NCBI GenBank assembly: GCA_002457605.1
Contig: NTJT01000003.1
Span: 8,748-72,747 of the forward strand
Length of the DNA: 64,000 nucleotides
Source of the DNA: Marine Group II euryarchaeote MED-G34
GTDB taxonomy: Archaea; Thermoplasmatota; Poseidoniia; Poseidoniales; Thalassarchaeaceae
Reading direction: 5' to 3'
The notes beneath the pieces were generated by a model. It saw only the letters and a program-made list of their open reading frames with translations, made no database searches and was not told where the DNA came from. Shown piece by piece: positions 27,890 through 59,179 of this stretch (its first letter is position 1; every line of letters starts with the position of its first letter). Position numbers and translations under genes: made by a program.

Positions 27890-29620
27890 TTAGTTGATAC
27901 GAGTCAACTGAAAATCAGTTAATTCTCTAAGAATGGACAACGCGGGGCTGTCATTCAATACGTCTAGACAACTGTGGGCGAGAGAATGATAATTCATAGC
28001 ACGCTGCTTGGCGTAGTCTATCGATCCACTGGATTCTAGTTCAGAAACAGCTTGAGCAAGGTCCTCATCACTGCATTCACCAGCCCCGAACACCTTTGTG
28101 AACATCGGTAATTCGGAACCGCATTCTAGGGCGCGTATTGCAATAAGCGTCCTCTTGCCCTGGACAACATCAGAACCCGCTGGTTTTCCTAATGTCTCAG
28201 TGTCCCCTGTGATATCAATCAAGTCGTCCATAATCTGGAAGCACAATCCTAAATTCAATCCCCACTCGGCCATGTTATTCACAGTGGCATCATCTGCACC
28301 AGCCAGCTTAGCTCCAGTCATCGCGCAAGTCTCGAACATAGCCGAAGTCTTCCCCTTTATCATGGAAATATAGTCTGCTTCGCTCACATCTTCTCGATTT
28401 TCGAATTCCATGTCCACCATCTGTCCTTCGGCAACCTTCCTGACCATCTCCCCTATCGATCTAACTAGGAACGCTAGGTTTTCATTCTCAATATGTGGTG
28501 ACTCTGCTAGGATTTCGAACCCAACGGCTAACATAGCATCTCCAGCGTTAATGGCAGTTGCATCATCATATGCTACGTGGACTGCTTCCAGGCCCCTACG
28601 AATGGGATCCTGATCCATGATGTCATCATGCACAAGGGTGAAATTGTGAATTATCTCAATACAGGCACCCAAGGTATAGTGCCCATCGTGAACTTCTCCT
28701 ACGGCTTCACCGACCAAATATGGTAGGGTGGCTCTGAGCCTCTTGCCCCCACCTGTGAACAGATGAGTCATTGCACCATGTAAACGCTCTTGCTTCATCT
28801 TGCTGAGGCTCTGCAGAATCACACCTTCGACACGATTCCTATGGAGTGCTATAGCACGCATCAGATTCTGCCCGGGCACCAATGAATTGCTATCCATATC
28901 TACTTCTCCGAAAGATACGACACCTTCTCTAGGTGCAGGAGGTAGTTCTGGCACTTGCAGAAGTAAAAACTCCTTCCACAGCAACTTGAACCAGGGGGCA
29001 ACGACTTCATCTTTCCAAATGTCCGTGTCCGAATGTATCGGTTCTTCGCCACTTACCATGTCCCATACTTCGGTGATATGCAACCATCTCGTCTCTGAAA
29101 TTTCATTGGGATTGGGTTCAACATGTAGATCGTCTTCTAATTCTTCAGGCAGTTGGGCCACAATAACATGGTCAACTTCATTTTCCACCCAATTTTCATC
29201 CCACCTACATTCATACTGAAATCTCCCAATATGCTCAAAGTCGATTAAATCTAACTGTTGCCGAGGTATTCCTAATTCTTGGTGTAGTTTTCTCTTTGCA
29301 GCATTAATCACTCCACTGACTGCATCCTCATTTTCACCAGGGATATCGAGAGGGTGGCTGCAGCAGGTATTTGCCCAGACTGAAGGAAAAGTAATTTTTT
29401 CAGCAGATCTCTTCTGTACCAATAGATATTGACCACCACCTTTGAACAATAACACACTGAACGCGCGATGTAGAAGCCCATCTCCATAGTGGCACTTGAG
29501 TTTAGTTTCAGAACCGATTCTATTGTCTGAAGAATCAACAAGAATACATCGCTCCTGCATCATATCTGCTTGAGACAGATCGTGCTCATCGAGAATTTTA
29601 GTCCCTCCTTGCTCAGTCAT
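27890..29620 (-). CDS. Fusion protein: type-1 isopentenyl-diphosphate isomerase (N-terminal) plus geranylgeranyl/polyprenyl diphosphate synthase (C-terminal)
   Basis: N-terminal LLHRAFSVLLF...LLVQKRSAEKITFPSVWANTCCSHP (IDI1 signature with catalytic Cys) and ENEVDH. C-terminal FARM LVHDDIMD and SARM FQIMDDLID. One uninterrupted 576-aa ORF. Confidence 0.85.
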   Translation of the reverse strand: MTEQGGTKILDEHDLSQADMMQERCILVDSSDNRIGSETKLKCHYGDGLLHRAFSVLLFKGGGQYLLVQKRSAEKITFPSVWANTCCSHPLDIPGENEDAVSGVINAAKRKLHQELGIPRQQLDLIDFEHIGRFQYECRWDENWVENEVDHVIVAQLPEELEDDLHVEPNPNEISETRWLHITEVWDMVSGEEPIHSDTDIWKDEVVAPWFKLLWKEFLLLQVPELPPAPREGVVSFGEVDMDSNSLVPGQNLMRAIALHRNRVEGVILQSLSKMKQERLHGAMTHLFTGGGKRLRATLPYLVGEAVGEVHDGHYTLGACIEIIHNFTLVHDDIMDQDPIRRGLEAVHVAYDDATAINAGDAMLAVGFEILAESPHIENENLAFLVRSIGEMVRKVAEGQMVDMEFENREDVSEADYISMIKGKTSAMFETCAMTGAKLAGADDATVNNMAEWGLNLGLCFQIMDDLIDITGDTETLGKPAGSDVVQGKRTLIAIRALECGSELPMFTKVFGAGECSDEDLAQAVSELESSGSIDYAKQRAMNYHSLAHSCLDVLNDSPALSILRELTDFQLTRIN

Positions 29621-34695: not shown

Positions 34696-36216
34696 ATGGG
34701 AGGTCCGGGCAAGGCCAAGAGGGGCATCCCCCCCAAGTCCGATTTCAACTCATGGTATCCTGCCATAGTTGAGATTGCAGATTTAGTTGACAAGAGATAT
34801 CCCATCAAGGGCATGGATGTATGGAGGCCCTATGGGTGGAAGACGATGTCTCTCATAGATGCACTTACCCGATCCCAAATGAGTAGAACAGGTCACGAAG
34901 AGTACAATTTCCCCTTACTCGTACCCGAGGACCTCTTGGACAAAGAGAATCAGTTAGTTTCGAAGCTCAAAGCGGCTAGGGATGCAGGTGTTGACCCCTC
35001 TGAGTTGAGAATGGGGGAAGAAGAGGGTGGTTTTGAGAATGAAGTATATTGGGTTAAGCACGGGGGGAATAATGAACTCGAGGTGCCAATGTTTCTCCGG
35101 CCGACATCTGAGACCCCTATGTATACGATGTTCTCATTATGGGTCCGAAGTCATGCAGATTTACCACTGAAAACGTTCCAGATAGTGAACACCTTCCGAT
35201 ACGAAACCAAGCAGACTAGGTCATTCATAAGAGTCCGTGAGATACACTTCTTCGAAGCCCACACAGTTCATGCAGATGAACAAGGGGCCACAGAGCAAAT
35301 CGCTGAGGATGCTGAGATTGTCCAGAGGCTGTTGCATGAGTTGTGTTTTCCTGCAATAGTTTCCAAGCGACCCCTATGGGATACGTTTCCTGGGGCTTGG
35401 TACTCTACCGCTGTAGATGCAGTGATGCCTAATGGGCGAACTCTACAGGTGGCCACGTATCATCACTATCGTGATCAGTGGGCACGTGCGTTCGATTTAT
35501 CATATGAAGACAGCGAAGGTTCGACCAGATTCTGTCATCAGACGACATTTGGGATGTCTGAGCGTCTGCTGGGAGCAGTTGTCGGTATGCATGGTGATGA
35601 TAGGGGCCTGATTTTACCTCCTTCCATAGCGCCAATCCAAGTTGTAGTCATGCCTGTAGCAGCACACTCGGATGCTAATGTAATGCCGCGTGTAATACAA
35701 CTGGCAACACACTTGTCCGAGAGTGGATTTAGAGTACATCTTGATGACAGGGACCTTCGCCCTGGAGCGAAACACTACGACTGGGAGATCAAAGGCGTTC
35801 CTGTCCGTCTTGAGATTGGCCCTAGGGATCTAGCATCAGGCAACTGTGTCATTACTTTGCGTACAGGAGGGAAGAGTGAAGTTCCATTAGATGGGATTAC
35901 TCAGACAATGAATCAATTGCTTGATTCCGTATCAGATGAACTTCGAACTCGTTCTCACAGTTATGCTTCTGAAATGATACGTCCGTTTCCGGGGCTAATA
36001 AAGAATGGAAATGGTTGGCATCTTCAATCCCCTGTAGAAGACGGCATCGTCTATGAACTAGCTTTCGATGGTAATGATGCTGATGCAGAGATACTCGAGA
36101 AGACCACAGGATTGACCCTACTCGGTGATTGTGTCTCCGTGTATGATGAACCAGTAGATTGTGCTGTAACGGGTAAGCCTACGAACCGAAGGCAACATCT
36201 TGCTAAAATGTACTAA
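34696..36216 (+). CDS. proS: Proline--tRNA ligase (archaeal/eukaryotic type)
   Basis: FNSWYPAIVEIADLVDKRYPIKG N-terminus, class II motifs (FRYETKQTRSFIRVREIHF), C-terminal Zn-binding-domain region. Start placed at the ATG 34696. Confidence 0.9.
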   Translation: MGGPGKAKRGIPPKSDFNSWYPAIVEIADLVDKRYPIKGMDVWRPYGWKTMSLIDALTRSQMSRTGHEEYNFPLLVPEDLLDKENQLVSKLKAARDAGVDPSELRMGEEEGGFENEVYWVKHGGNNELEVPMFLRPTSETPMYTMFSLWVRSHADLPLKTFQIVNTFRYETKQTRSFIRVREIHFFEAHTVHADEQGATEQIAEDAEIVQRLLHELCFPAIVSKRPLWDTFPGAWYSTAVDAVMPNGRTLQVATYHHYRDQWARAFDLSYEDSEGSTRFCHQTTFGMSERLLGAVVGMHGDDRGLILPPSIAPIQVVVMPVAAHSDANVMPRVIQLATHLSESGFRVHLDDRDLRPGAKHYDWEIKGVPVRLEIGPRDLASGNCVITLRTGGKSEVPLDGITQTMNQLLDSVSDELRTRSHSYASEMIRPFPGLIKNGNGWHLQSPVEDGIVYELAFDGNDADAEILEKTTGLTLLGDCVSVYDEPVDCAVTGKPTNRRQHLAKMY

Positions 36217-37094
36217 TTATTCTTCCTAAATGCACTACGAAGAGTAATCATTCCAAACAACATCAGAAGGGCACCATCAAGCAATCCACCGCTCCCAGCC
36301 GGAGCCCATGAGTCAATGGATTCGTATTCAACGACCTTGTCCCAAAGCAGCCGTGTATTGTCTTCACATTGCGCTGGGATTTCAGAAATTTCAGCAAGTA
36401 TGGATGTTGTAGAAGAATTACCAGTGCAACCGTTAGATTGAGAAATCTCAATTCCCTCAGAGTATAGTGTGGAGACATAACACCCTGGCAGCACTGTTAC
36501 AGCTCGATTCTCCGAGTGAATCATATTACTCGATCCACTCCAATTGAACCAGCCATCGTCTACGAATTCCGAAGATCCATCTTGCGACATCGACCAATAA
36601 ATGCTGTAATTCGTGGTGGTATTCAGATTGGTAACTGACCAAGCAATGTGCATTGTGTCATTCTGCCATGCTGACGACGATGTATAGGTCAGCGGTGGGG
36701 CCTCTATCTGGTCATCACACAGTTCTAGGTACTGTCCAATTCCTATTGATACGTTAACACTCACTAAAATCAATCCGAGTAGGCCTGCCATCAGAACGAT
36801 GCGCCTGCCTGAAGATTCCTTGGACGATTGTTCGATAATTTCTTCAACTTCTGGAATATCTGGGAGTTCAACTTCCAGATTATTTCCGTTCGAGTGATTA
36901 GTAGGGTCAACTTCAGGAGGCCTCATCGGAGCAGCAACGCCCATCTCATCCAATGCTTCTCTGCCGTAGATTCTCTCCGCTAGGGCGTACAACTCAGCAT
37001 CGTCTTCTAATTCTGTGGGATCCATGCTTCCATCAAGTAGTCCCTTGACCCTCTCGGCATCGCCCATAGTGTCCCCCCGGGCACTATTGTTCAT
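36213..37094 (-). CDS. Hypothetical bitopic membrane protein with sequon-rich ectodomain
   Basis: Acidic N-terminal about 95 aa, a TM helix (IVLMAGLLGLILVSV), about 150 aa with many N-x-S/T sequons and paired Cys, then a C-terminal TM plus basic tail (LLDGALLMLFGMITLRSAFRKNN). Confidence 0.5.
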   Translation of the reverse strand: MNNSARGDTMGDAERVKGLLDGSMDPTELEDDAELYALAERIYGREALDEMGVAAPMRPPEVDPTNHSNGNNLEVELPDIPEVEEIIEQSSKESSGRRIVLMAGLLGLILVSVNVSIGIGQYLELCDDQIEAPPLTYTSSSAWQNDTMHIAWSVTNLNTTTNYSIYWSMSQDGSSEFVDDGWFNWSGSSNMIHSENRAVTVLPGCYVSTLYSEGIEISQSNGCTGNSSTTSILAEISEIPAQCEDNTRLLWDKVVEYESIDSWAPAGSGGLLDGALLMLFGMITLRSAFRKNN

Positions 37095-39025: not shown

Positions 39026-40234
39026 ATGGACATCCGATTCGAATCGATTGGTGGCAATTCCGACTGGAGGACTAGGTTGAGTGGGATGAGCGTTCCAGAT
39101 TGTGTCGCAACGGATTCAATTTTGTCATCCTGCCTCCAGACCCTTATCTCTGGAGGTAGTATATCCTCGGAAGTAGGCATTAGCCTGATGCATCACGATT
39201 CTCTCAGTGCATTGTGCTCATTGGCTAGTATGGTTAAGAAATCTCGATTCGATAATCGAGTCTTTTTCAACGAGAATCTGCATGTAAACACAACAAATAT
39301 CTGTGTACTAGCATGCAGGTTTTGTGCGTTCCGTAAAGGATCTAGGCACCCCGAGGCATATGCACTATCCGCTAAGGACTTCGTAGAACGAATCGAACCA
39401 TTCTCCAATAGGATTGACGAGGTTCACGCGGTCGGAGGCCTCCATCCTGATTGGACAATCGATCATTATGTTGAACTATACTCAACAATCAAGAATGCGT
39501 ACCCCGATATTCACCTAAAATCACTTACTGCCATTGAAATAATCCATATTGCCGAGCGTTCAGGTATTTCTGTCAAACAAACACTCCAATCTCTGTTGAA
39601 CTCCGGTCTCGGTTCAATTCCAGGAGGCGGAGCTGAGATACTTGTGGACTCTGTTAGGAATGTCATATGTCGAGGAAAAGAGACATCCTCGGAATATCTA
39701 GAAGTACATGCCATAGCGCACGATTTGGATATACCAACAAACTGTACAATGCTGTTCGGTACCATTGAGACGTTGGATCACAGAATTGACCACTTAGTAA
39801 AGCTCCGTGAGCAGCAGGAGGAGAGCGGAGGATTCCAGTGTTTTGTTCCATACCCGTTCCTGCCTGATAGGAGTAGATTACCGGAAGCACAGTTGGCTAG
39901 TTCTAGCGAAGTGGTTCGTATGATTGCAGTTTCAAGAATAATGCTTGATAATATTCCACACATCAAGGCATATCGTATGAACTTCGGAGATCATCTAGCT
40001 TCATTATGTCTGACAGCAGGGGCTGATGATATCGATGGTACAGTTGGCCACGAAGAGATTATGCACGAAGCAGGGAGTATGACCAGCGTCGATATGGAAT
40101 CAGAATCATTAGCTAGAATGATTGCTTCGACAGGGTCAATTGCAGTCAAACGAAATTCCACTTATACAAAATTCTCAATATTTGAGAATAGTATCGGTAC
40201 TCAACAAATTTTACCAGTATATGGTCAACGTTAG
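39026..40234 (+). CDS. Radical SAM enzyme of the futalosine pathway (MqnE/MqnC family)
   Basis: CxxxCxxC cluster CVLACRFCAFRKG in an MqnC/E-like context. About 400 aa. Immediately followed by an mqnA-like gene. I cannot separate MqnE from MqnC by eye. Confidence 0.7.
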   Translation: MDIRFESIGGNSDWRTRLSGMSVPDCVATDSILSSCLQTLISGGSISSEVGISLMHHDSLSALCSLASMVKKSRFDNRVFFNENLHVNTTNICVLACRFCAFRKGSRHPEAYALSAKDFVERIEPFSNRIDEVHAVGGLHPDWTIDHYVELYSTIKNAYPDIHLKSLTAIEIIHIAERSGISVKQTLQSLLNSGLGSIPGGGAEILVDSVRNVICRGKETSSEYLEVHAIAHDLDIPTNCTMLFGTIETLDHRIDHLVKLREQQEESGGFQCFVPYPFLPDRSRLPEAQLASSSEVVRMIAVSRIMLDNIPHIKAYRMNFGDHLASLCLTAGADDIDGTVGHEEIMHEAGSMTSVDMESESLARMIASTGSIAVKRNSTYTKFSIFENSIGTQQILPVYGQR

Positions 40235-40236
40235 GA

Positions 40237-41040
40237 GTGAATATGTCCTGGAAAGAAGTACTCGGGAGAGTATCATTCAGCAACTGTGACCCAATATTCT
40301 ATGGATTAGAAAATAGTTGGGGGATTTTGCCAGCACCACCATCTTGGCTTACTGGACATGTGATTAGGAAGGATTGCATTACTGCACCGATACCATCCGC
40401 CGATTATGCAGAATACCACGATCAATTAGTATTGATTCCCGATTTAGGAATAGTTAGTCGGGGAGATGTGGGATCTGTGTTGTTGTTTGGCACACGCCCC
40501 CTTGAATCGATGAGGGATATCGCAATTCCTTCGGATTCATCCACATCTAAGAAACTCCTAAGTTGGATACTAGATAATCGGGAAATAGATCCTAAGACAA
40601 TTGAGATGGGGCCAGACATTTCATCAATGCTTGAGAGTTGTGACGGTGCCCTGTTGATAGGTGATCGGGCACTATCGGCAGCATCTCGTAATCCCGAAAC
40701 AGTTCAATTGGATTTAGGTGCGGAATGGACTCGTATCACAGGTTTTCCTATGGTATTCGGTGTATTCGCGACTAGGAAAGATAGTCCCATGGACATAGTT
40801 CTTCGAGCTAGGGGAGATATGTTTGAACAGTATTCAAAATTCAAGCAAGACGAAGAATGGAGGAACGAGGTAATTTTGAATACGTCATTGAATAGCGGAC
40901 TATCGGAATCAAGAATCTCTGAATATTTCAGTCGTGAAGTTGAGAATATTCTTGATTCAGAGGCAATAATGGGATTAGAATTGTTCCTGCATGAGGCTTG
41001 TGGGATGGAAGCGGCAGTAGAATGGATACGATTGGACTAA
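40237..41040 (+). CDS. mqnA: MqnA-like chorismate dehydratase (VitK2_biosynth / PBP-fold family)
   Basis: N-terminal GRVSFSNCDPIFYGL resembles the MqnA pattern (G.isy.N..P...gL). 267 aa. GTG at 40237 or ATG at 40243. Confidence 0.6.
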   Translation: MNMSWKEVLGRVSFSNCDPIFYGLENSWGILPAPPSWLTGHVIRKDCITAPIPSADYAEYHDQLVLIPDLGIVSRGDVGSVLLFGTRPLESMRDIAIPSDSSTSKKLLSWILDNREIDPKTIEMGPDISSMLESCDGALLIGDRALSAASRNPETVQLDLGAEWTRITGFPMVFGVFATRKDSPMDIVLRARGDMFEQYSKFKQDEEWRNEVILNTSLNSGLSESRISEYFSREVENILDSEAIMGLELFLHEACGMEAAVEWIRLD

Positions 41041-41510
41041 TACTCCAGACTTTTACTCTGCACCCAATTCATGAGATCAATGGCTACTTCACAAGATTCT
41101 GCAATGACTGGCTCAGAATCGTATCTAAATTTCTCAAGTGTATCCATGGCCACCCTATCTCCTATGGCACCCAAAGCTTCTGCTGCTTCGTGCCTTACCA
41201 TAAGATCCTCATCACTATCTGATAACCTCTCTATCAAATACGGCACTGCATGCGAATCCTGCATTTGACCCATCACATATGCAATTTCATGCTTTAGCAA
41301 AGCCGATTCAGAATCGAATGCATTAGCTAATGCGTCTACCGATTCATTACCACCAATATTCCTTAGTGCAAACAATGCTCGCATACGTGCAAACATCTTA
41401 CTCTCCTCATTACAAAGAATCTCTCTAAGAGTCTCAACATCTGTCATACCACTTGGAGGAGCAGGATCAACAGAACCAAATTCACTAGTATCAGGTATAT
41501 CCTCAGACAT
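41037..41510 (-). CDS. HEAT-repeat protein, half-length deoxyhypusine hydroxylase (DOHH)-like
   Basis: 157 aa. Two His-Glu motifs in DOHH-like contexts (SALLKHEIAYVMGQMQDSHAVP and LMVRHEAAEALGAIGD), plus RALFALRNIGG and VIAESCEVAIDLM. The ATG immediately follows the mqnD stop codon. Confidence 0.65.
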   Translation of the reverse strand: MSEDIPDTSEFGSVDPAPPSGMTDVETLREILCNEESKMFARMRALFALRNIGGNESVDALANAFDSESALLKHEIAYVMGQMQDSHAVPYLIERLSDSDEDLMVRHEAAEALGAIGDRVAMDTLEKFRYDSEPVIAESCEVAIDLMNWVQSKSLEY

Positions 41511-42365
41511 TCATTCAACTCCTAAAAATTCGATTTTTGATACATCTAACGAGGATCCAACAACACCGATATTTTGCCCCTCTATGAGGAATCTACGGAC
41601 TGCTTCCCTCCCCTCTTCTCCATAATCCAATGTTCGCTCATTTACGTACATGCCTACGAACTCTCTGTTAGTATCATCATCAATCCCTCTCCCCCATAAT
41701 TTGGCGAATTCAAGTGCTGAGTCCGGATTGCTGAGGGAATACTGGATACTACGCCTGATGTCGTCAGTAACTTTTTGACAAATATCATCACCAAGATCCT
41801 TCCTTACAACGTTCCCCCCCAGAGGTAACGGAAGCCCCGTCCTATCATACCACCAAGCGCCCAAATCAAGGATTAGGTGCAACCCCTCATTAGCCCATGT
41901 AATTTGACCCTCGTGTATGATTAAGCCCAAATCGTATTCTCCCCTGACCACTGCAGGGATAATTTGGTCGAAAGGAACCACGTGAACATCCACGTCTCCC
42001 CAAGCAATTCTTAGTGCGAGATAAGCGCTAGTCCCCAGTCCCGGTATGGCAATTGTCCTAGTTTTCGCCTCATCAGGGGGCAACTCAGTTCGAGATACCA
42101 AAATTGGTCCATACCCCTCTCCCATAGAAGCTCCACAATTCATTAATTGATAGCGATCAGCAATAGTTGGATATGAGTGAATACTGACCGCAGAAACTTC
42201 GAACTTACCCTCTAATGCATATCTGTTCAATTGCTCGATTTCGTATAGTTCGTGAACATATTTCCTCCCTTGAGTATCTAGTAATCCGGTAGTTAATGCG
42301 TGGAACATGAATGCGTCATCGGGGTCTGGAGAATGGCCTATTCTAAACACGTATTCTTCACCCAT
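41511..42365 (-). CDS. mqnD: MqnD-like 1,4-dihydroxy-6-naphthoate synthase (VitK2_biosynth family)
   Basis: FRIGHSPDPDDAFMFHAL resembles the MqnD N-terminal pattern (G.SPCPNDtF.F.AL). Start moved to the internal ATG 42365. The 80-aa upstream part of the ORF is Cys/Arg-rich and looks non-coding. Confidence 0.65.
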   Translation of the reverse strand: MGEEYVFRIGHSPDPDDAFMFHALTTGLLDTQGRKYVHELYEIEQLNRYALEGKFEVSAVSIHSYPTIADRYQLMNCGASMGEGYGPILVSRTELPPDEAKTRTIAIPGLGTSAYLALRIAWGDVDVHVVPFDQIIPAVVRGEYDLGLIIHEGQITWANEGLHLILDLGAWWYDRTGLPLPLGGNVVRKDLGDDICQKVTDDIRRSIQYSLSNPDSALEFAKLWGRGIDDDTNREFVGMYVNERTLDYGEEGREAVRRFLIEGQNIGVVGSSLDVSKIEFLGVE

Positions 42366-42687
42366 AGTAATCCGAATGGTAATGGGTTGAAAATAACTCC
42401 TAGGGAGTAACTTGTAGAAGGCAACAGTCAATAATCGATAGGCTCTCGAAATACCATGCCCGATGCAACAAAACTGTCTACGGCAACAGGTCAATTGGGG
42501 CCCGTTTGCGCCCATACCGGTAAGGCGTTGACATTTGCCGAAGCTATTGTACTGGACAATCAGTATGTCTGCTGGGAGGCATACATCGAAATCACTGGGG
42601 CACAACCTGCAACCGAGGGCCGAGAGGCAAGTTCACTCGACCTTGAATGACGGCACAGTTCATTTGCCTAGACATTTTGTCTTGTTT

Positions 42688-43899
42688 ATGGCCGAGGGAT
42701 GGAGTCGATTCGCACTCCGATTCTCAGAGTATTACCAATCATTGGGTGTCAATGATATCTGGTGCCCTCCTAGATTTAGATCCAGGGAATGGATGTTCAT
42801 ACCATGGGGTTCCAGACCACCTGACAGGCATCGTGGATTCACCGATAAGTCCGAACTTCTCCACTACTTACATACAAAATCTCCACATTCATGCTTCCAC
42901 AGTACAGCATACTATCACGATCCCTCGCAACGCAGTATGATTGACAAGGGATGGAAGGGTGCCGATTTGATTTTTGACTTAGATGGCGATCATTTGCCTG
43001 GAGTCTCAGATAGGGATTTTCCAGCTATGTTAGAATTGATTCAGGATCAGGCATGGAAACTGTGGTCTGAATTCTTAGAGCCGGAATTTGGATTTCAGGA
43101 GCAGTATGTACAGACATCATTCTCAGGACATAGGGGATATCATATCCATGTTAGGGATCCTGCATACCTGCAGTTGGATTCAAATGCTCGTAGACAATTA
43201 GTCAATTACATCCGGGGTGAGGGAGTAAATGTCCAAACTGTGGTAGGGAATTCACAGGGAGGATGGAAAAATAGAGTTGAAGATGGAACTGATATAGTTG
43301 TAGAGAAATTACGTTCCATAGGTTCGAAAAGTGCGGTTGGAAACGAACTCTTAGTTGAACTGGACGGGATAATGAAGCAGAGGTTGAAAAGCCGGGATAG
43401 TAAAATCAAATCATTTAGCAAAAAGAAAATAGCAATGCTTGCCGAACAGAGTCTAAATGATACCAAGATTGAGAGATTAAAATCCAATACATCTCTAACA
43501 GTATTCGGGGAAGAACAAACTTCAGCATTTTGGGAACTCGTGAAAGGTGACTCAGCAGTAGTGTTGGGGGGTGCTGGTGAAACAGATGAAAATGTCACAG
43601 TTGATGTAAAACGTGTCATTAGGTGGATAGGGAGTCTTCATGGCAAGTGCGGTCTTAGAGTAACAGAATTACCCCTTAGCAGACTAGATCCAGATGCGTC
43701 TGATGCATTCGATCCACTCACCGAAGCGGTAGCCCTGGGGGGACAGTCTATGCACAAGATTGAGTTAACCAAGGACGACATAACGGCAAAAATCTCAGAA
43801 TGCTATGTTGAAGGTGGTACAGGTGACGTAATTGAAGTTCCTGAAAGCATGGCTACGTTCCTTTCTTTGAAAGGATGGGGGGCATTGATATCCCCATAA
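42688..43899 (+). CDS. priS: DNA primase small (catalytic) subunit PriS
   Basis: AEP motifs DLIFDLDGDH and SFSGHRGYHIHV. Start placed at the ATG 42688 (MAEGWSRF). Confidence 0.85.
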   Translation: MAEGWSRFALRFSEYYQSLGVNDIWCPPRFRSREWMFIPWGSRPPDRHRGFTDKSELLHYLHTKSPHSCFHSTAYYHDPSQRSMIDKGWKGADLIFDLDGDHLPGVSDRDFPAMLELIQDQAWKLWSEFLEPEFGFQEQYVQTSFSGHRGYHIHVRDPAYLQLDSNARRQLVNYIRGEGVNVQTVVGNSQGGWKNRVEDGTDIVVEKLRSIGSKSAVGNELLVELDGIMKQRLKSRDSKIKSFSKKKIAMLAEQSLNDTKIERLKSNTSLTVFGEEQTSAFWELVKGDSAVVLGGAGETDENVTVDVKRVIRWIGSLHGKCGLRVTELPLSRLDPDASDAFDPLTEAVALGGQSMHKIELTKDDITAKISECYVEGGTGDVIEVPESMATFLSLKGWGALISP

Positions 43900-44706
43900 G
43901 TGAAGATATCGAGTGCCCCCAATCACAGAATATTGAATAGTGGAGAGTTTCGGAATCAACTCGGTGGGCACGTGGCAGTAGACGACGACGACGTTTCTGA
44001 CGTATCCGAACTCCCTCTTCCTCCATTGCCTCCAGGAATCACATTACCTCCTCCTCCTCCGCCTCCCGCAATGATTGAGGAAGAAGAATTTGAGGGTGTT
44101 GAGACCATCGAGTTTACGGAGTCAGATATTGATGAAGAGATATCTGATGAACCGAGTGATTTCCAGGCTCAGTGGGAAAAGAGACGATTGTCAGACCCAG
44201 TCATAGGCACCGATTCGAAAGATAGTATGTACGGGCACATAGATAGGATAGCCACAGGTGATGTAGGCACTTTGTTAGATAGGTTCTCGGACCGCTTTGG
44301 CTCCGAACTCGATAGGGAAATTATCGTACTTAGAAAGCAGCAGCAGCAGGATATCAGGGCAGTAAAGCCTACGGTAGAGCTAGTATCCCCTCCCACAATT
44401 GAGATTGAAGAAGATGAAATAGATGATTCTGATGCAGATGAATTCGTAGAATTTTTTGATGTAGTCAACAATCTTCTTGGCAATATGCCTGAAGACTTCA
44501 TCGATCGGTTCGTAAATTCCGATTCATTCGCATTATTCGAATCAGTGGGCACAAATCCCGAAGCTGCGGACGAAGACGCGCGAAAGGCATTCTTCGTCAT
44601 GATAAACGCCGAACTAGGGGAATTACCGGAGGATAAGATAAACGAGTTCGTGGAATCACCGGGTTTTGAGATATTTACCCGTATGGGCCAGAATTATGGA
44701 GGTTGA
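43900..44706 (+). CDS. Hypothetical highly acidic protein with poly-Pro tract and internally duplicated C-terminal motif
   Basis: The frame opens with a GTG directly after the priS stop. PLPPLPPGITLPPPPPPP. Two copies of a 33-aa motif (FFDVVNNLLGNMPEDFIDRFVNSDSFALFESVG / FFVMINAELGELPEDKINEFVESPGFEIFTRMG). Start uncertain; the first ATG is at 44065. Confidence 0.45.
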   Translation: MKISSAPNHRILNSGEFRNQLGGHVAVDDDDVSDVSELPLPPLPPGITLPPPPPPPAMIEEEEFEGVETIEFTESDIDEEISDEPSDFQAQWEKRRLSDPVIGTDSKDSMYGHIDRIATGDVGTLLDRFSDRFGSELDREIIVLRKQQQQDIRAVKPTVELVSPPTIEIEEDEIDDSDADEFVEFFDVVNNLLGNMPEDFIDRFVNSDSFALFESVGTNPEAADEDARKAFFVMINAELGELPEDKINEFVESPGFEIFTRMGQNYGG

Positions 44707-44709
44707 AGC

Positions 44710-45501
44710 ATGGGACTGTTGGAAAAGGCTGAGAAGATTCAATCAGAAGATGAAGAAGAACAGGCCCCTGCTGACGAGCCACCTAAGACTGTCACGATTC
44801 AAGAGCCAGAGCCAGTACAGAAGAAGGCCAAGAAGGCGAAGAAGACTCGATCTCGCAGGGGGCGAAAGGAGAAGAAGGCCAAGAAGGAGCGAGTTGCTAA
44901 GGTTATACCTGAGGGATTTGAGCCAGCTGCTCGAGTGAGATCATCATTCCGGTATCTTGTAGACACAATAGCAAATTGGGGAATCATGATTATTACAGCA
45001 GTAATTATGAGTCAAGCAGATGCCGATCCTACGATTCCAATAATTGCTGCGATGGCACTAGCATTGGGAAATATGATCTACTTACCATCGAAGATTTCTA
45101 GATCAGCTGGGAATATAGTCACCGGGACTCAATTTGTAGACACGAGAGGGAACAACCCACAATTTCTATACCATCTAGCAAAAAGTGCCAATATTCCATT
45201 ACTTCTAGCTGGCTTATTTGGAATGTTACTATTAATTTCAGAAGGTACCGATTGGACATCAGGAAACAAGATATTTGTTGGCACTTCATTGACATTATTG
45301 TTAGTGCCTCTATTGGATCGTTTCTTGCGCAATAGGGGCGATGAAAAACTTGGATTCTGGGATAGGTTATTTGGAGGGGTTTGGCTAGTTACAGCTGAAA
45401 AGACAGAGTCTGATTCTGGATTAATCAAGAGACTACAGTCACTTGGAGATTATGCGGAACAACGTGGGATGATGGCGGAAGATGATGAGAAGACCGGCTA
45501 A
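44710..45501 (+). CDS. RDD-family-like membrane protein with Lys-rich N-terminal tail
   Basis: ATG preceded by GGAGGT. N-terminal KKAKKAKK...KEKKAKKE, then TM helices with R...D...D spacing (RYLVDT ... FWDRLFG) reminiscent of the RDD domain. Confidence 0.5.
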   Translation: MGLLEKAEKIQSEDEEEQAPADEPPKTVTIQEPEPVQKKAKKAKKTRSRRGRKEKKAKKERVAKVIPEGFEPAARVRSSFRYLVDTIANWGIMIITAVIMSQADADPTIPIIAAMALALGNMIYLPSKISRSAGNIVTGTQFVDTRGNNPQFLYHLAKSANIPLLLAGLFGMLLLISEGTDWTSGNKIFVGTSLTLLLVPLLDRFLRNRGDEKLGFWDRLFGGVWLVTAEKTESDSGLIKRLQSLGDYAEQRGMMAEDDEKTG

Positions 45502-52332: not shown

Positions 52333-52972
52333 GTTGAATGATGGATATCGCGAAATTCTAGATTCAATTGCATCTGATTCACCCACGCCGGGGGGAGGTT
52401 CAGTTGCAGCTCTATCTCTTGCACACGCTCATGCACTTGTTTGCATGGTATCCAGGCTCACTCTCAAGAGTGATAAATGGAAATCTGGACATGAATCTGC
52501 ACAAAATGCTCTCAGTTCGTCAAATGAAGGTATATCATATGCCATAGAATTAGCACATAGGGATGCTCGATCATTTGACTCTGTGATTTCAGCGTTTAGG
52601 ATGCCAAAATCTACTGAATCTGAACTTTCTAATAGGCGTGAGGCAATACAACAAGGCTACATTAGGGCCGCAGAAGTGCCTATGGAAACTGCCCGATCGG
52701 GGTGTGAACTACTGGGAATAACACTAATTGAACTCGCAACTAACTGCAATGCCAATGCAATTACGGATTTGGGAGCAGCAGCAGAGTTGACACACTCCGC
52801 GATAAGCATTGCAGCACTAAACGTCAGAATAAATATTGATTCGGTCGGGCCTAACATTACGTCAGAAACTGATGTTCTTCTTGCTTCAATGAACAGAATG
52901 ATTGATGACATCGAATCTCATGGTGCAAAACTAACCGGTGAAATTCGCGAGATTGTATCACGCAGGATGTGA
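52325..52972 (+). CDS. Formimidoyltetrahydrofolate cyclodeaminase
   Basis: SPTPGGGSVAAL signature. 215 aa. GTG start overlapping the ftcD stop by 8 nt. Confidence 0.85.
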   Translation: MIELNDGYREILDSIASDSPTPGGGSVAALSLAHAHALVCMVSRLTLKSDKWKSGHESAQNALSSSNEGISYAIELAHRDARSFDSVISAFRMPKSTESELSNRREAIQQGYIRAAEVPMETARSGCELLGITLIELATNCNANAITDLGAAAELTHSAISIAALNVRINIDSVGPNITSETDVLLASMNRMIDDIESHGAKLTGEIREIVSRRM

Positions 52973-52976
52973 TGAT

Positions 52977-54983
52977 ATGGAATTCTCTGATGATGTTTGT
53001 ATAGGGATTCCTACAGAATTACCTGAATCGATTAGAATTGATGACACACTGGACCATGCCCCTTCTCGCCCGGTTCACTTGACGTCCAATCAGAAACGCC
53101 TTGCATTACGAAATGCACTACGATACTTCCCATCTGATTGGCACGCCGAGTTAGCACCTGAGTTCGCTACTGAATTAGAGACTCTTGGACATATTTACAT
53201 GCATAGATTTAGGCCTCAATATCCCATGCATGCTCGTTCAATATCTGAATATCCAGCAAAGAATGATCAGTGCGCGGCGATAATGTTGATGATTCAGAAT
53301 AATCTCGATCCTAATGTTGCCCAGTACCCACATGAACTAGTGACATACGGTGGTAACGGAACCGTATTTCAAAACTGGATACAATATAGACTAACAATGT
53401 CCTATCTGTCTACTATGGGTGAGAATCAGACTTTAGTAATGTATTCCGGACATCCATTGGGGTTATTCCCGTCAAATCCGAATTCCCCAAGAGTCGTGGT
53501 GACAAATGGAATGGTTATACCTAATCATTCATCTCAGGATGACTATGAATTGATGAATGCTATTGGAGTCACTCAGTATGGTCAAATGACTGCTGGTTCA
53601 TACATGTACATAGGCCCCCAGGGGATAGTACACGGGACGACAATAACTCTGTTGAATGCTGCTCGCAAATATATTGGAATTAGTGCCGAAGAAGGATTGG
53701 GTGGCATTATGTATGTCACTTCTGGACTTGGTGGAATGTCAGGAGCTCAGGCGAAGGCAGCAGTTATCTCAGGTGCAGTTGCAGTAATTGCTGAGTGTAA
53801 CGAATTCGCAGCCAAAAAAAGGTATCAACAGGGATGGTTGTCTGAATTATTCTATGATTTAGAACCTCTACTCGATCGTGCAGAACAAGCCAAATCTCAA
53901 CGTGAGGCCGTGTCATTGGGATTCGTAGGTAACATAGTTGATCTTTTGGAAGGCCTCATAGATCGGCAAATATGTCCAGAGTTAGGCAGTGATCAGACAA
54001 GCCTACACAACCCATGGCTGGGTGGGTATATGCCTGTAGGAATGAACTATGATGATGGAATTAGAGCTCTGAAGGAAGATCCTAAGCAGTTTAGGAATGC
54101 TGTCAAAGCAAGCCTTATTCGACACGCCGATGCGATAAACACCCTATCAGAACGCGGTATGCACTTCTGGGATTATGGTAACGCATTCCTGCTAGAATGC
54201 TCCAAGGCAGGTGCTGATGTTGTATCTGAGAGTGGTGATTTCCGATACCCCTCGTATGTAGAAGATATCATGGGGCCAATATGCTTCGATTATGGATTTG
54301 GCCCCTTCAGATGGGTCTGCACTTCAGGATCTCAAAAAGATCTAGATGTAACTGATGAAATTGCTTCTGGTATACTCAGAGATTTATTCAATTCTGCATC
54401 GGACGATACTCGACTCCAGTATGCGGATAATTTGAAGTGGATTGAGAATGCAAATGCTCACGACCTAGTTGTTGGCACCAAAGCTAGAATTCTATACGCG
54501 GATGACTCGGGGAGGAGAGGTATTGCTTCTGCATTCAACAAAGCCATCTCTACTGGAAGAATCTCTGCCCCAGTTGTGATTGGTAGGGACCACCACGACG
54601 TAGGTGGTACTGACAGTCCGTATAGGGAGACTGCCAACATCAAAGATGGTTCGATGTTTGCTGCTGATATGTCTGTTCACAACTTTGTCGGCGATGCTTT
54701 CAGAGGGGCTACATGGGTTAGTTTGCATAACGGCGGAGGGGTTGGATGGGGAGAGGTAATCAATGGAGGATTCGGTATGGTACTGGATGGTTCGGATCAA
54801 TGTGAAGAACGTATTCAGTCGATGATATCTTGGGATGTGAACAATGGAATTGCTCGTAGGGCGTGGGCCAATAATCCCGGCTCTGTTTCATCGATCAAGC
54901 TCGCTATGAATCAGAATGACGAACTCTCGATAACATTACCAAATGTTGTGGACGAGAAGATATTGTCTGACCAATACGACTAG
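52977..54983 (+). CDS. hutU: Urocanate hydratase (long form, about 668 aa)
   Basis: ALRNALRYFP, VTYGGNG, GLGGMSGAQ (NAD site), GRDHHDVGGTDSP. Start at the ATG 52977. Confidence 0.9.
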   Translation: MEFSDDVCIGIPTELPESIRIDDTLDHAPSRPVHLTSNQKRLALRNALRYFPSDWHAELAPEFATELETLGHIYMHRFRPQYPMHARSISEYPAKNDQCAAIMLMIQNNLDPNVAQYPHELVTYGGNGTVFQNWIQYRLTMSYLSTMGENQTLVMYSGHPLGLFPSNPNSPRVVVTNGMVIPNHSSQDDYELMNAIGVTQYGQMTAGSYMYIGPQGIVHGTTITLLNAARKYIGISAEEGLGGIMYVTSGLGGMSGAQAKAAVISGAVAVIAECNEFAAKKRYQQGWLSELFYDLEPLLDRAEQAKSQREAVSLGFVGNIVDLLEGLIDRQICPELGSDQTSLHNPWLGGYMPVGMNYDDGIRALKEDPKQFRNAVKASLIRHADAINTLSERGMHFWDYGNAFLLECSKAGADVVSESGDFRYPSYVEDIMGPICFDYGFGPFRWVCTSGSQKDLDVTDEIASGILRDLFNSASDDTRLQYADNLKWIENANAHDLVVGTKARILYADDSGRRGIASAFNKAISTGRISAPVVIGRDHHDVGGTDSPYRETANIKDGSMFAADMSVHNFVGDAFRGATWVSLHNGGGVGWGEVINGGFGMVLDGSDQCEERIQSMISWDVNNGIARRAWANNPGSVSSIKLAMNQNDELSITLPNVVDEKILSDQYD

Positions 54984-55007
54984 CGCGATATTCTAATGCT
55001 ATGAGTC

Positions 55008-56555: not shown

Positions 56556-57287
56556 ATGCAAGATCGTCTGCATATGACTAGCCACCCTGGCACCAATCCA
56601 GAACCATTCACGGCCACTGTTGCTGAAATAGATGAGGATTTCATCATATTGAGTGAATCCTATTGTTACCCGCGGGGTGGTGGGCAGCCAGGGGATAGAG
56701 GGTCATTCAATGGAAATTGGGGAGATTCTGAATTTGGCGAAGTGCTTGGAGGTAATTTCATTCGTCATCCAGTAGATTCACCTGATAAATTCTCAGTAGG
56801 TGAACAAATTGAATGCAGAATCAATCAGGAAGTTCGGAACCGTCATGCCAAGATGCATACAGCACAACACATTGTTTCTGCTATGGCTGATGACCTGTGG
56901 GGAGCTGAAACGGCAGGAAATCAGATTAGTACACATTACACCAGAATAGATTTGCTGTTTGAAAACAGGGAAGTATATGACTCTCAGATATTAGAAGACT
57001 CAGTAAATGATATCATAGGCTCAAATACAGAGGTGCTAGTACATGATTGGTCGAGAGAGAAAATTGTTGGGCATGAACAGATGCGACATACAAAATTCAT
57101 GGATCGAATACCCAGTTCAATCCCAACTCTAAGGGTTGTAGAGATTCAGGGTATCGATCTATGCCCTTGTGCAGGAACACATGTTGAAAATACTGATGAT
57201 GTAGAATCAATTGTAATTACGAATGTCAAATCCAAAGGGGCCGGAAAATTCAGAATTACATATCAGTTTGAAAATGAATTAGAATAG
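56556..57287 (+). CDS. alaX: AlaX-type alanyl-tRNA editing protein (tRNA_SAD domain)
   Basis: Zn-binding HxxxH (HTAQHIVS) and CPCAGTHV motifs, N-terminal YPRGGGQPGDRG. The ATG directly follows the hutH stop. Confidence 0.8.
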   Translation: MQDRLHMTSHPGTNPEPFTATVAEIDEDFIILSESYCYPRGGGQPGDRGSFNGNWGDSEFGEVLGGNFIRHPVDSPDKFSVGEQIECRINQEVRNRHAKMHTAQHIVSAMADDLWGAETAGNQISTHYTRIDLLFENREVYDSQILEDSVNDIIGSNTEVLVHDWSREKIVGHEQMRHTKFMDRIPSSIPTLRVVEIQGIDLCPCAGTHVENTDDVESIVITNVKSKGAGKFRITYQFENELE

Positions 57288-57299
57288 GCACTATCCTAT

Positions 57300-59135: not shown

Positions 59136-59179
59136 ACACGATGCTTGAAAGCAGTGCCTGCTTGGAAGTGATGTAGAAC

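What the first reader, a model, noticed from the sequence alone, without database searches (positions are those of the whole stretch)
41037..41510. Half-length deoxyhypusine hydroxylase homologue: candidate for the missing archaeal DOHH
The 157-aa protein reads as four HEAT-like hairpins with exactly two His-Glu motifs, SALLKHEIAYVMGQMQDSHAVPYL and LMVRHEAAEALGAIGD. From memory, these are nearly identical to the iron-ligand HE motifs of eukaryotic DOHH (human SALLKHELAYCLGQMQD and PMVRHEAGEALGAIGD). Other blocks match too: RALFALRNIGG, VIAESCEVAIDLM, and an N-terminal SVDPAPP like the start of the second half of the human enzyme. Eukaryotic DOHH is about 300 aa. It is an internal duplication whose four HE motifs build one di-iron site. 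A single-half protein would have to homodimerise to do the same, so this looks like a pre-duplication form. To my knowledge, hypusine rather than only deoxyhypusine has been reported in some archaea, yet no archaeal DOHH gene has been identified. This gene is a concrete candidate.
Basis: partly seen in the sequence, partly recalled or inferred. Interest (0 to 1): 0.8.

Follow-up and report, generated by a model that had tools for sequence, protein, structure and literature searches.

The report
Half-size deoxyhypusine hydroxylase in marine archaea
A widespread family of marine archaea (Marine Group II-b) carries a conserved gene equal to one half of the eukaryotic enzyme that completes the hypusine modification of translation factor 5A, an enzyme the literature says archaea lack, and it looks like the single-unit ancestor of both eukaryotic halves.

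Summary
ORF 41037-41510 (-) encodes a 157-aa, four-HEAT-hairpin protein with two His-Glu motifs. It matches human DOHH (4d4z) at E=3e-70 and aligns to both halves (116 and 121 bits). Every residue known to bind iron or deoxyhypusine has a conserved counterpart: H74, E75, G81, H107, E108. The AF2 model (pLDDT 90) superposes on 4d4z at TM 0.86, against about 0.65 for generic HEAT proteins.

The gene is real: dN/dS is 0.05, and over 100 syntenic loci were found, with every named source being a Thalassarchaeaceae/Poseidoniales archaeon.

The protein is intermediate between the eukaryotic halves. It is more N-like than 99/100 C halves and more C-like than 99/100 N halves. It falls outside both crown clades in most quartets. 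Its termini match the eukaryotic linker end (SVDPAPP) and C-terminal tail.

It most likely works as a homodimeric di-iron hydroxylase acting on deoxyhypusinated aIF5A. That mechanism is inferred, not shown.

This is an archaeal DOHH candidate, but I saw it only in MGIIb. It therefore cannot explain hypusine in Crenarchaeota. "Pre-duplication" is consistent with the data but unproven. The gene follows an mqnD-like gene in 87/89 loci and survives without it in two. The papers searched do not describe it, though JGI auto-annotates it.

The parts
41037..41510 (-). Half-length DOHH-like gene (157 aa, four HEAT hairpins, pI 4.2)
   Evidence: ORF. Human DOHH 4d4z matches at E=3e-70, aligning to both halves. 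AF2 pLDDT is 90.1 with 8 helices. Foldseek to 4d4z gives TM 0.86, rmsd 2.2 A, 47% identity. dN/dS is 0.053.
41286..41291 (-). His74-Glu75, first HE motif. It corresponds to human H56-E57 and H207-E208 (Fe ligand His; substrate-binding Glu).
   Evidence: Alignment (PDB chain index = UniProt + 5). H74 is invariant and E75 is at least 90% conserved in 36 orthologues. Both are invariant across MGII plus N and C halves. Residue roles are from PMC9117371.
41268..41270 (-). Gly81, corresponding to human G63 and G214 (deoxyhypusine-binding residues)
   Evidence: Invariant. Role is from PMC9117371, which prints G65 for the first glycine; the alignment places it at G63.
41187..41192 (-). His107-Glu108, second HE motif. 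It corresponds to human H89-E90 and H240-E241 (Fe ligands).
   Evidence: Alignment. Invariant.
41454..41474 (-). N-terminal SVDPAPP motif (residues 13-19), matching the conserved end of the eukaryotic inter-half linker
   Evidence: Alignment. S13, D15, P16, A17 and P18 are invariant in MGII orthologues. Eukaryotic linkers end in [YF]xSVDPAPP.
41040..41096 (-). C-terminal tail ESCEVAIDLMNWVQSKSLEY (residues 138-157), collinear with the C-terminal tail of eukaryotic DOHH
   Evidence: Eukaryotic C termini read ESC.VALDM.DY..S..FQY, and P0164 ends ...SDSLEY. Y157 is invariant in MGII.
41511..42368 (-). Upstream PF02621 (MqnA/MqnD-family, here called mqnD-like) gene. Its stop codon abuts the ATG of the DOHH-like gene, so the two are probably co-transcribed.
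   Evidence: Pfam PF02621 at 1.2e-68. TGA-ATG junction seen in the sequence. The gene is directly upstream in 87/89 testable loci. NCBIfam could not assign MqnA versus MqnD.
40237..41040 (+). Convergent PF02621 (mqnA-like) gene overlapping the 3' end of the DOHH-like gene by 4 nt. Context only.
39026..40234 (+). MqnE/MqnC-type radical SAM gene (futalosine pathway). Context only.
   Evidence: Pfam Radical_SAM + CofH_C. The best NCBIfam match is MqnE at 373.6 bits, below its 434.55 cutoff.

Best explanation
The gene encodes a single-domain (four-HEAT-repeat) member of the deoxyhypusine hydroxylase family, found in Marine Group II-b archaea (Thalassarchaeaceae).

Shown here:
- It is homologous to both halves of the eukaryotic enzyme.
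- It keeps, in one copy each, every residue that the two-domain enzyme uses to bind iron (His of HE motif 1; His and Glu of HE motif 2) and to bind the deoxyhypusine side chain (Glu of both HE motifs, and the Gly seven residues after the first His).
- It has the DOHH half-domain fold.
- It is under strong purifying selection.

Inferred:
- Two copies associate head-to-head, as the N and C domains of eukaryotic DOHH do. The pairs of H74, H107 and E108 from the two chains would build one non-haem di-iron centre at the dimer interface.
- That centre activates O2 through a peroxo-diiron(III) species and hydroxylates deoxyhypusine on aIF5A to hypusine.
- The substrate would be made by the archaeal deoxyhypusine synthase, which the literature reports in all archaeal genomes.

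Evolution: the protein sits near the node that joins the N and C halves. It is therefore either a surviving single-unit (pre-duplication-grade) form or a very early offshoot. Its narrow distribution implies that horizontal transfer links MGIIb and the eukaryotic lineage, in an undetermined direction.
For: - Homology: phmmer against the PDB gives human DOHH at E=3e-70, with the N half at 116 bits and the C half at 121 bits.
- Exhaustive search: the strong hits are about 300-aa proteins with two matched stretches at 40-51% identity, and those sampled are eukaryotic DOHH.
- Catalytic and substrate residues are mapped and conserved.
- Structure: pLDDT 90.1 with 8 helices. Foldseek gives 4d4z at TM 0.86, rmsd 2.2 A, versus about 0.65 for alphaRep proteins.
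- Selection: dN/dS is 0.053, similar to the neighbouring mqn-like genes at 0.037 and 0.103.
- Genuinely archaeal: 17 GTDB MAG loci and 80 metagenome loci share the same archaeal gene neighbourhood.
- Intermediate position in held-out HMM scoring: the C-minus-N score difference is -34 +/- 12 for N halves, +45 +/- 9 for C halves and +9.8 +/- 3 for MGII. MGII also scores higher on both HMMs than true members do.
- Mosaic of N-like and C-like character states.
- MGII is more N-like than 99/100 C halves and more C-like than 99/100 N halves, and bootstrap CIs exclude 0. The pattern holds for human DOHH, chosen a priori, and for the least similar third of the sample.
- Quartets place MGII outside crown C in 84% of cases and outside crown N in 73%.
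- A head-to-tail fusion of two MGII units predicts a Cys-to-SVDPAPP offset of 30 residues. The eukaryotic median is 27, IQR 25-33.
- No second paralogue is present in the window or in 100 loci, which favours a homodimer over a heterodimer.
- The gene persists intact where the adjacent mqn genes are absent (L022, L028).
Against: - No dimer model could be made, and there is no biochemical data. Iron binding, dimerisation and activity are all inferred.
- dhs and aIF5A are not in the window, and I could not check them in an MGIIb genome. Their presence rests on statements in the literature.
- The Euryarchaeota tested, including Thermoplasmatales, the closest relatives examined, carried deoxyhypusine rather than hypusine.
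- The gene is translationally coupled to a futalosine-pathway gene in 87/89 loci, which could point to another substrate.
- The tree of halves cannot be rooted, and bootstrap support for N and C monophyly is low at 19% and 15%.
- Both termini are C-half-like.
Confidence: 0.6

Rival explanations
1. It is a DOHH-like di-iron oxygenase that acts on a substrate other than aIF5A. One possibility is a quinone or naphthoate intermediate, or a protein, connected with the futalosine menaquinone pathway, since the gene is co-transcribed with a gene of that pathway.
For: The stop codon of the upstream PF02621 (mqnD-like) gene abuts the ATG. This adjacency holds in 87/89 loci. It survives a WD40-gene insertion on the other side in the most divergent clade. 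MqnE/C-like and mqnA-like genes lie next door.
Against: To my knowledge the futalosine pathway needs no hydroxylation step. The residues that bind the deoxyhypusine side chain in human DOHH (E57/E208 and G63/G214) are conserved. Identity to eukaryotic halves is 44-50%, about as high as eukaryotic halves show to each other. The whole 10-gene block, which includes primase, transketolase and a CNNM transporter, is collinear across MGIIb, so adjacency carries little functional information. L022 and L028 keep an intact DOHH-like gene without the mqnD-like and radical-SAM genes at the locus.
Confidence: 0.13
2. This rival concerns evolution only. The gene is not a pre-duplication relic. It is the C-terminal half of a eukaryotic or stem-eukaryotic DOHH, including the linker end, that the MGIIb ancestor acquired horizontally. 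Selection for a self-complementary homodimer then pulled the catalytic core back towards N-like, consensus-like states.
For: Both termini are collinear with the eukaryotic C half and its flanks: the SVDPAPP head and the ESC.VA.D..Y..S..LEY tail. The protein leans slightly towards C in identity (46.1 vs 43.6%) and in HMM score (+9.8 bits). Both strict diagnostic columns are C-like. The distribution is confined, as far as seen, to one archaeal family, whereas DOHH is universal in eukaryotes.
Against: It requires many convergent changes to exactly the N-half states (RALF, LLKHE, GQM, GAIG). MGII lies outside crown C in 84% of quartets. No particular eukaryotic C half stands out as a donor: the maxima are 57% for C halves and 56% for N halves. 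MGII is more N-like than 99/100 C halves. Convergence would, however, produce some of these same signals.
Confidence: 0.35
3. It is a generic PBS-lyase-type HEAT-repeat scaffold or adaptor with no oxygenase activity, and the His-Glu pairs are incidental.
For: Pfam recognises only HEAT_PBS and HEAT_2 repeats. NCBI annotates relatives as 'HEAT repeat domain-containing protein'. NblB and CpcE give weak NCBIfam hits.
Against: The NblB and CpcE scores of 42 and 27 bits are far below their cutoffs of 300 and 330. DOHH outscores any HEAT protein per stretch by more than 60 bits. H74, G81, H107 and E108 are invariant over 36 orthologues and across both eukaryotic halves. dN/dS is 0.05.
Confidence: 0.04
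4. It is a catalytic subunit that pairs with a second, divergent HEAT protein encoded elsewhere in the genome, forming a heterodimer rather than a homodimer.
For: Eukaryotic DOHH is pseudo-symmetric rather than symmetric, and its substrate binds asymmetrically. I examined only about 20 kb around each locus for paralogues.
Against: tblastn at E<10 finds no paralogue in the 64-kb window or in 100 loci. Among the best 150 hits of the exhaustive phmmer search, the only half-length proteins are two clusters, P0132 and P0222. Both belong to the same orthologous MGIIb family, though weaker half-length hits would not have been listed. The protein combines N-like and C-like features, as expected of a subunit that plays both roles.
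Confidence: 0.08

Closest known systems
Eukaryotic deoxyhypusine hydroxylase (DOHH / Lia1 / nero; EC 1.14.99.29; human structure PDB 4D4Z)
   Same: Same HEAT-hairpin fold (TM 0.86 to one half). Identity to each half is 44-50%. The HE motifs are identical in sequence context (LLKHE.AY..GQMQ and MVRHEAAEALGAIG). The substrate-binding Glu and Gly residues are conserved. It has the SVDPAPP motif and the C-terminal ESC.VA.D...Y..S..L.Y tail. It is acidic (pI 4.2).
   Different: It has one four-HEAT unit (157 aa) instead of two fused units (about 300 aa), and so two HE motifs per chain instead of four. It must therefore oligomerise to form a di-iron site. It is encoded in an archaeon, in an operon-like arrangement with a futalosine-pathway gene. 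Its sequence is intermediate between the N and C halves rather than belonging to either.
PBS-lyase-type HEAT-repeat proteins (CpcE/CpcF, NblB, MTH187, and the designed alphaRep proteins derived from them)
   Same: Same repeat type (Pfam HEAT_PBS, HEAT_2) and similar size for some members. Foldseek TM is about 0.65.
   Different: These proteins have no His-Glu metal motifs at the equivalent positions. Identity is about 32%. Family-specific NCBIfam scores fall far below the cutoffs. They have no SVDPAPP motif or DOHH tail.
Homodimeric relatives of internally duplicated, pseudo-symmetric enzymes. This is an analogy drawn from general knowledge, not a family.
   Same: A single-unit protein whose dimer would reproduce the pseudo-two-fold active site of a fused two-domain relative.
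   Different: For DOHH, the papers I searched describe no such single-unit form. Here the relationship is inferred from sequence only.

Membership tests
Deoxyhypusine hydroxylase (DOHH, EC 1.14.99.29) | Significant sequence similarity that is specific to DOHH rather than to generic HEAT proteins | tested here: met
   Human DOHH matches at E=3e-70, with 116 and 121 bits per half, against 30-50 bits per stretch for alphaRep proteins. Top full-length hits in 1.84 billion representatives are eukaryotic DOHH at 40-51% identity. MGII proteins score 185 and 195 bits on the N-half and C-half HMMs, above held-out true halves.
Deoxyhypusine hydroxylase (DOHH, EC 1.14.99.29) | His-Glu motifs positionally homologous to H56-E57, H89-E90, H207-E208 and H240-E241, and conserved among orthologues | tested here: met
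   H74-E75 and H107-E108 align to both pairs of human motifs. H74, H107 and E108 are invariant and E75 is at least 90% conserved in 36 orthologues. All four are invariant across MGII plus N and C halves.
Deoxyhypusine hydroxylase (DOHH, EC 1.14.99.29) | Four HE motifs and eight HEAT repeats in two symmetrical domains within one polypeptide | tested here: not met
   The protein has only four hairpins (8 helices) and two HE motifs in 157 aa. All orthologues are 150-168 aa. The canonical architecture could be met only at the level of a dimer.
Deoxyhypusine hydroxylase (DOHH, EC 1.14.99.29) | Substrate-binding residues (E57, E90, E208, E241, G63/G214 in human) | tested here: met
   The equivalents E75, E108 and G81 are conserved. 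Residue roles are from PMC9117371.
Deoxyhypusine hydroxylase (DOHH, EC 1.14.99.29) | Fold of a DOHH domain | tested here: met
   The AF2 model has pLDDT 90.1. The Foldseek top hits are 4d4z_B and 4d4z_A, at TM 0.86 and 0.84, rmsd 2.2 A.
Deoxyhypusine hydroxylase (DOHH, EC 1.14.99.29) | Formation of one di-iron centre from two four-HEAT units (here, by homodimerisation) | not testable with these tools
No multimer prediction or model coordinates were available.
Deoxyhypusine hydroxylase (DOHH, EC 1.14.99.29) | Co-occurrence with deoxyhypusine synthase and a/eIF5A in the same genome | not tested
   Neither gene is in the 64-kb window. The literature states that all archaeal genomes encode aIF5A and DHS.
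Deoxyhypusine hydroxylase (DOHH, EC 1.14.99.29) | Fe-dependent hydroxylation of deoxyhypusine on a/eIF5A | not testable with these tools
   This needs a biochemical assay or mass spectrometry of MGIIb aIF5A.
Phycobilisome lyase / NblB-type HEAT proteins | Score above the family cutoff for the NblB, CpcE or CpeY equivalog models | tested here: not met
   NblB scores 42.2 bits (cutoff 300), CpcE 26.8 (cutoff 330) and CpeY 14 (cutoff 600). Only the generic repeat models HEAT_PBS and HEAT_2 pass.

The most novel reading that the evidence does not exclude
The MGIIb protein is a living representative of the single-unit, homodimeric ancestor from which the eukaryotic two-domain DOHH arose by tandem duplication and fusion. 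It makes genuine hypusine on aIF5A. On this reading it would be the first archaeal DOHH, and the hydroxylation step of hypusination would have existed in a prokaryotic lineage before or alongside eukaryogenesis.
Probability: 0.3. Interest if true: 0.85.

Novelty: new variant of a known kind. Interest (0 to 1): 0.7.

Why it matters
For about twenty years, papers on hypusine have stated that DOHH is confined to eukaryotes and that no orthologue exists in archaea. This gene gives a counter-example that is concrete, abundant and highly conserved.

It makes three things directly testable:
1. Whether an archaeal lineage outside Crenarchaeota makes true hypusine. Marine metaproteomes can be searched for MGII aIF5A peptides carrying +87 Da (hypusine) versus +71 Da (deoxyhypusine).
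2. Whether a four-HEAT unit can homodimerise to build the unusual HEAT-based di-iron centre. If so, it would be a minimal and symmetric model of that active site.
3. How the pseudo-symmetric eukaryotic enzyme arose. The MGII sequence looks like the common ancestor of both halves.

It does not solve how Sulfolobus and other Crenarchaea hydroxylate deoxyhypusine.

Tried and rejected
There is therefore no dimer model.
2. The single genome-contig scan used 8-mer peptides taken from the query and so reached only close relatives. It returned 17 loci, all MGIIb. It cannot show absence from MGIIa, MGIII, Asgard or bacteria.
It was uninformative about other lineages, though useful for synteny.
4. The viral-contig scan found no relative, so there is no evidence for a viral vector.
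5. Strictly defined diagnostic columns numbered only two, too few to decide anything. I relied instead on HMM score differences and identity distributions.
6. My quartet 'control' is 1/3 by symmetry and carries no information, so I disregarded it.
7. NJ bootstrap support for N-half and C-half monophyly is weak at 19% and 15%. I make no claim about exact branching order.
8. I was concerned that picking eukaryotic sequences as the top hits to the query inflates the 'centrality' of MGII. I tested this with human DOHH, chosen a priori, and with the lowest-ranked third of the sample. The pattern persists.
9. Regex searches for the aIF5A hypusine loop (GKHG) and the DHS active site (SWGK) in six frames of the window found nothing relevant.
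10. NCBIfam could not tell MqnA from MqnD for the two PF02621 neighbours. The labels mqnA-like and mqnD-like are tentative.
11. Park et al. 2006 (PMC1324997) is not held, so I could not read its statements on the duplication.
12. I rejected contamination, chimera and pseudogene readings. The identical protein is seen on 86 contigs, synteny with archaeal genes is conserved, and dN/dS is 0.05.
Full report
**Observation.** It has two His-Glu dipeptides. H74-E75 lies in SALLKHEIAYVMGQMQD (codons at 41286-41291). H107-E108 lies in LMVRHEAAEALGAIGD (codons at 41187-41192). I checked both against the raw sequence.

**Is it DOHH-like or just HEAT-like?** Pfam sees only generic repeats, HEAT_PBS and HEAT_2. 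NCBIfam gives NblB and CpcE scores far below their cutoffs: 42 against 300 and 27 against 330. A search of all PDB sequences puts human deoxyhypusine hydroxylase first at E=3e-70. The query aligns end to end with each half of the enzyme: residues 24-152 to the N half at 116 bits, and residues 7-148 to the C half at 121 bits. Designed alphaRep HEAT proteins reach only 30-50 bits per stretch.

An exhaustive phmmer search of 1.84 billion representatives returns three kinds of strong hit:
- giant multi-HEAT proteins that win only by summing dozens of repeats;
- about 300-aa proteins with two matched stretches at 40-51% identity;
- two half-length clusters, P0132 at 71% and P0222 at 62%.

The full-length proteins I sampled are eukaryotic DOHH: Geosiphon, the amphipod Hirondellea, EukProt transcripts, and short contigs that JGI labels 'deoxyhypusine monooxygenase'. 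An AlphaFold2 model built from 36 orthologues is confident (pLDDT 90.1, pTM 0.82) and has eight helices, i.e. four hairpins. Foldseek against the PDB puts 4d4z first (TM 0.86, rmsd 2.2 A, 47% identity), well ahead of alphaRep proteins at about 0.65.

**Catalytic residues.** The PDB chain index equals UniProt numbering plus 5. On that basis the mapping is as follows:

| MGII residue | Human N half | Human C half |
|---|---|---|
| H74-E75 | H56-E57 | H207-E208 |
| G81 | G63 | G214 |
| H107-E108 | H89-E90 | H240-E241 |

According to Park et al. 2021 (PMC9117371), H56, H89, E90, H207, H240 and E241 anchor the di-iron centre. E57, E90, E208, E241 and two glycines bind the deoxyhypusine side chain. 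In 36 diverse orthologues H74, G81, H107 and E108 are invariant and E75 is at least 90% conserved, with one cluster carrying Asp. All five are invariant in a joint alignment with eukaryotic N and C halves. The refutation criterion 'HE motifs not positionally homologous or not conserved' is therefore not met.

**Is it a real archaeal gene?** The identical protein is seen on 86 contigs. The best 120 database hits are all 119-168 aa at 73-100% identity; nearly all are 150 aa or longer, and the one shorter entry is a fragment. NCBI names those it labels 'Candidatus Thalassarchaeaceae archaeon'. A scan of GTDB species representatives gave 17 loci, all from Poseidoniales/Thalassarchaeaceae (Marine Group II-b) MAGs. 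All 17 share the same ten-gene neighbourhood: transketolase N and C subunits, an MqnE/C-type radical SAM gene, a PF02621 gene, the DOHH-like gene, a second PF02621 gene, primase PriS, two unknown ORFs and a CNNM transporter. The most divergent cluster, P0222, is also Thalassarchaeaceae. Pairwise dN/dS is 0.053, comparable to the neighbouring mqn-like genes at 0.037 and 0.103. Contamination, chimerism and pseudogene decay are excluded. The rest of the window is ordinary archaeal housekeeping: aEF2, MetRS, an Lhr helicase and hut genes.

**Relation to the two eukaryotic halves.** I split 99 full-length proteins, plus human DOHH, into N and C halves. I aligned them with 15 MGII proteins over 121 well-aligned columns. 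Mean identities are:

| Comparison | Mean identity |
|---|---|
| MGII - N | 43.6% |
| MGII - C | 46.1% |
| N - C | 38.6% |
| N - N | 42.1% |
| C - C | 48.6% |

- The best NJ tree has three clean clades, with MGII attached between N and C. Bootstrap support is good only for MGII monophyly (93%) and is weak for N (19%) and C (15%).
- HMMs trained on 60 proteins and tested on 40 held-out proteins give a C-minus-N score difference of -34 +/- 12 for N halves, +45 +/- 9 for C halves and +9.8 +/- 3.0 for MGII. MGII scores higher on both models (185 and 195 bits) than genuine held-out members do (160 and 187).
- Character states are a mosaic. RALF, LLKHE, GQM and GAIG are N-like. F.R.R, LRN.G and ESC.VA.D are C-like.
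- The eukaryotic set was chosen as top hits to the query, so I checked for ascertainment bias. For human DOHH, picked a priori, MGII is 45.6% identical to the N half, where other eukaryotic N halves average 46.9%. It is 49.9% identical to the C half, where other C halves average 52.3%. True cross-half values are about 40%. The least similar third of the sample shows the same pattern.
- MGII is more N-like than 99 of 100 C halves and more C-like than 99 of 100 N halves. Column-bootstrap CIs exclude zero.
- Four-point quartets put MGII outside crown C in 84% of cases and outside crown N in 73%. A crown member would give 33%.

A recent truncation of a modern eukaryotic C half is therefore not supported.

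**Termini.** The MGII head EFGSVDPAPP matches the conserved end of the eukaryotic inter-half linker ([YF]xSVDPAPP). The MGII tail ESCEVAIDLMNWVQSKSLEY matches the eukaryotic C-terminal tail (ESC.VALDM.DY..S..FQY). One eukaryotic protein, P0164, ends ...SDSLEY. Fusing two MGII units head to tail predicts 30 residues between the Cys of the last helix and the SVDPAPP motif. The eukaryotic median is 27, with IQR 25-33.

These facts fit a duplication-fusion of an MGII-like unit, in which the N copy lost its head and its tail decayed into the variable linker. They fit equally well a derivation of the MGII gene from 'linker end + C half'. The three-clade tree has no outgroup, so I cannot decide between these. 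Homodimer constraints could also have driven convergence towards N-like states.

**Genomic context and the menaquinone rival.** The stop codon of the upstream PF02621 gene (mqnD-like; the MqnA versus MqnD assignment is tentative) abuts the ATG (TGA-ATG). Across 100 loci this gene is directly upstream in 87 of 89 testable cases. That includes the most divergent clade, where a 786-aa WD40 gene has been inserted on the other side. Co-transcription is therefore likely.

Four things argue against a role in the futalosine pathway:
- To my knowledge that pathway needs no hydroxylase.
- The deoxyhypusine-binding residues are conserved.
- The whole heterogeneous block is collinear at this divergence.
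- In L022 and L028 the DOHH-like gene is intact behind a ~340-nt intergenic region, while the mqnD-like and radical-SAM genes are absent from the locus.

I give the alternative-substrate reading about 13%.

**Most likely mechanism (inferred).** Two chains associate as the N and C domains of DOHH do. H74, H107 and E108 from each chain bind two irons. E75, E108 and G81 line the pocket for the deoxyhypusine side chain of aIF5A. O2 is activated via a peroxo-diiron(III) intermediate and the side chain is hydroxylated. No second paralogue exists in the window or in the fetched loci, and among the best 150 hits of the exhaustive search only one orthologous half-length family appears. That favours a homodimer. 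Their presence in MGIIb rests on statements in the literature that all archaeal genomes have them.

**Comparison with what is known.** The literature repeatedly states that no DOHH orthologue exists in archaea (Bassani 2018; Prunetti 2016; Chawla 2012; a 2021 review). Full-text searches found no paper combining:
- hypusine with Marine Group II;
- DOHH with Asgard;
- aIF5A with hypusine and hydroxylase, reporting an archaeal enzyme.

The one paper that mentions both deoxyhypusine and Poseidoniales is about polyamine decarboxylases and does not describe this gene. JGI's pipeline already auto-labels some members 'deoxyhypusine monooxygenase', while NCBI calls them HEAT-repeat or hypothetical proteins. 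So the similarity has been picked up by software but, as far as I can see, has not been discussed.

Hypusine itself was reported in Crenarchaea, and deoxyhypusine in Euryarchaeota including Thermoplasmatales. This gene therefore cannot be 'the' missing archaeal DOHH. It is a candidate DOHH for MGIIb specifically.

**Limits.** Distribution outside MGIIb is unknown. The genome scan was limited by its peptide patterns, the metagenome scan saturated with MGIIb, and only the top 150 of 559 strong representative hits were visible. No viral copy was found.

**Verdict.**
- It is a new variant of a known kind: a single-unit, presumably homodimeric DOHH in archaea.
- Interest is 0.7.
- The most novel reading not excluded is that it represents the pre-duplication ancestor of eukaryotic DOHH and makes true hypusine. 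I put that at about 0.3.

Noticed in passing
L018 10542-12902; L020 3135-5495: In the most divergent MGIIb clade, a 786-aa multi-WD40 beta-propeller gene is inserted between the DOHH-like gene and the mqnA-like gene.
   Followed up: no
L022 2873-4491; L028 1137-2764: Two MGIIb lineages lack the mqnD-like gene and the MqnE/C radical-SAM gene at this locus but keep the DOHH-like and mqnA-like genes. This suggests partial loss or relocation of the futalosine cluster.
   Followed up: partly
window 27890-29620 (-): A 576-aa fusion of a NUDIX domain with a polyprenyl synthetase domain.
   Followed up: no
window 4734-10061 (+): A 1775-aa Lhr-type helicase. Pfam domains cover only the first ~830 residues, so the C-terminal ~900 aa have no listed Pfam family at E <= 1e-5.
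   Followed up: no
protein P0082: A 75%-identical orthologue seen on 126 contigs is labelled 'Woeseia sp.' (a gammaproteobacterium) at NCBI. It is probably an MGIIb contig mis-binned into a bacterial MAG.
   Followed up: no
window 41037-41510 versus L001-L017: The identical protein occurs on 86 contigs, yet the closest GTDB species representative is only 75% identical. The window's lineage may have no close representative genome, or the pattern-limited scan missed it.
   Followed up: no
window 36216-37094 (-), 43900-44706 (+), 44710-45501 (+): Two ORFs with no Pfam match, 43900-44706 and 44710-45501, are nevertheless syntenic across MGIIb loci. A third ORF with no Pfam match, 36216-37094, was not tested for synteny.
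   Followed up: no
window 41511-42605 (-) and 42535-43899 (+): The mechanical ORF for the mqnD-like gene extends to a TTG start (364 aa) and overlaps the listed PriS ORF. Homologues are 285 aa, so the true start is probably the ATG at 42368.
   Followed up: partly
proteins P0121-P0124 and others: Giant multi-HEAT proteins (up to 6021 aa, 28 matched stretches) outrank genuine DOHH in whole-protein phmmer E-value because repeat scores are summed. This is a trap for automated annotation of HEAT proteins.
   Followed up: no
window 52938-59213: A histidine-utilisation gene group: urocanase, histidine ammonia-lyase and an amidohydrolase, with tRNA-Val(GAC) at 57300-57375.
   Followed up: no
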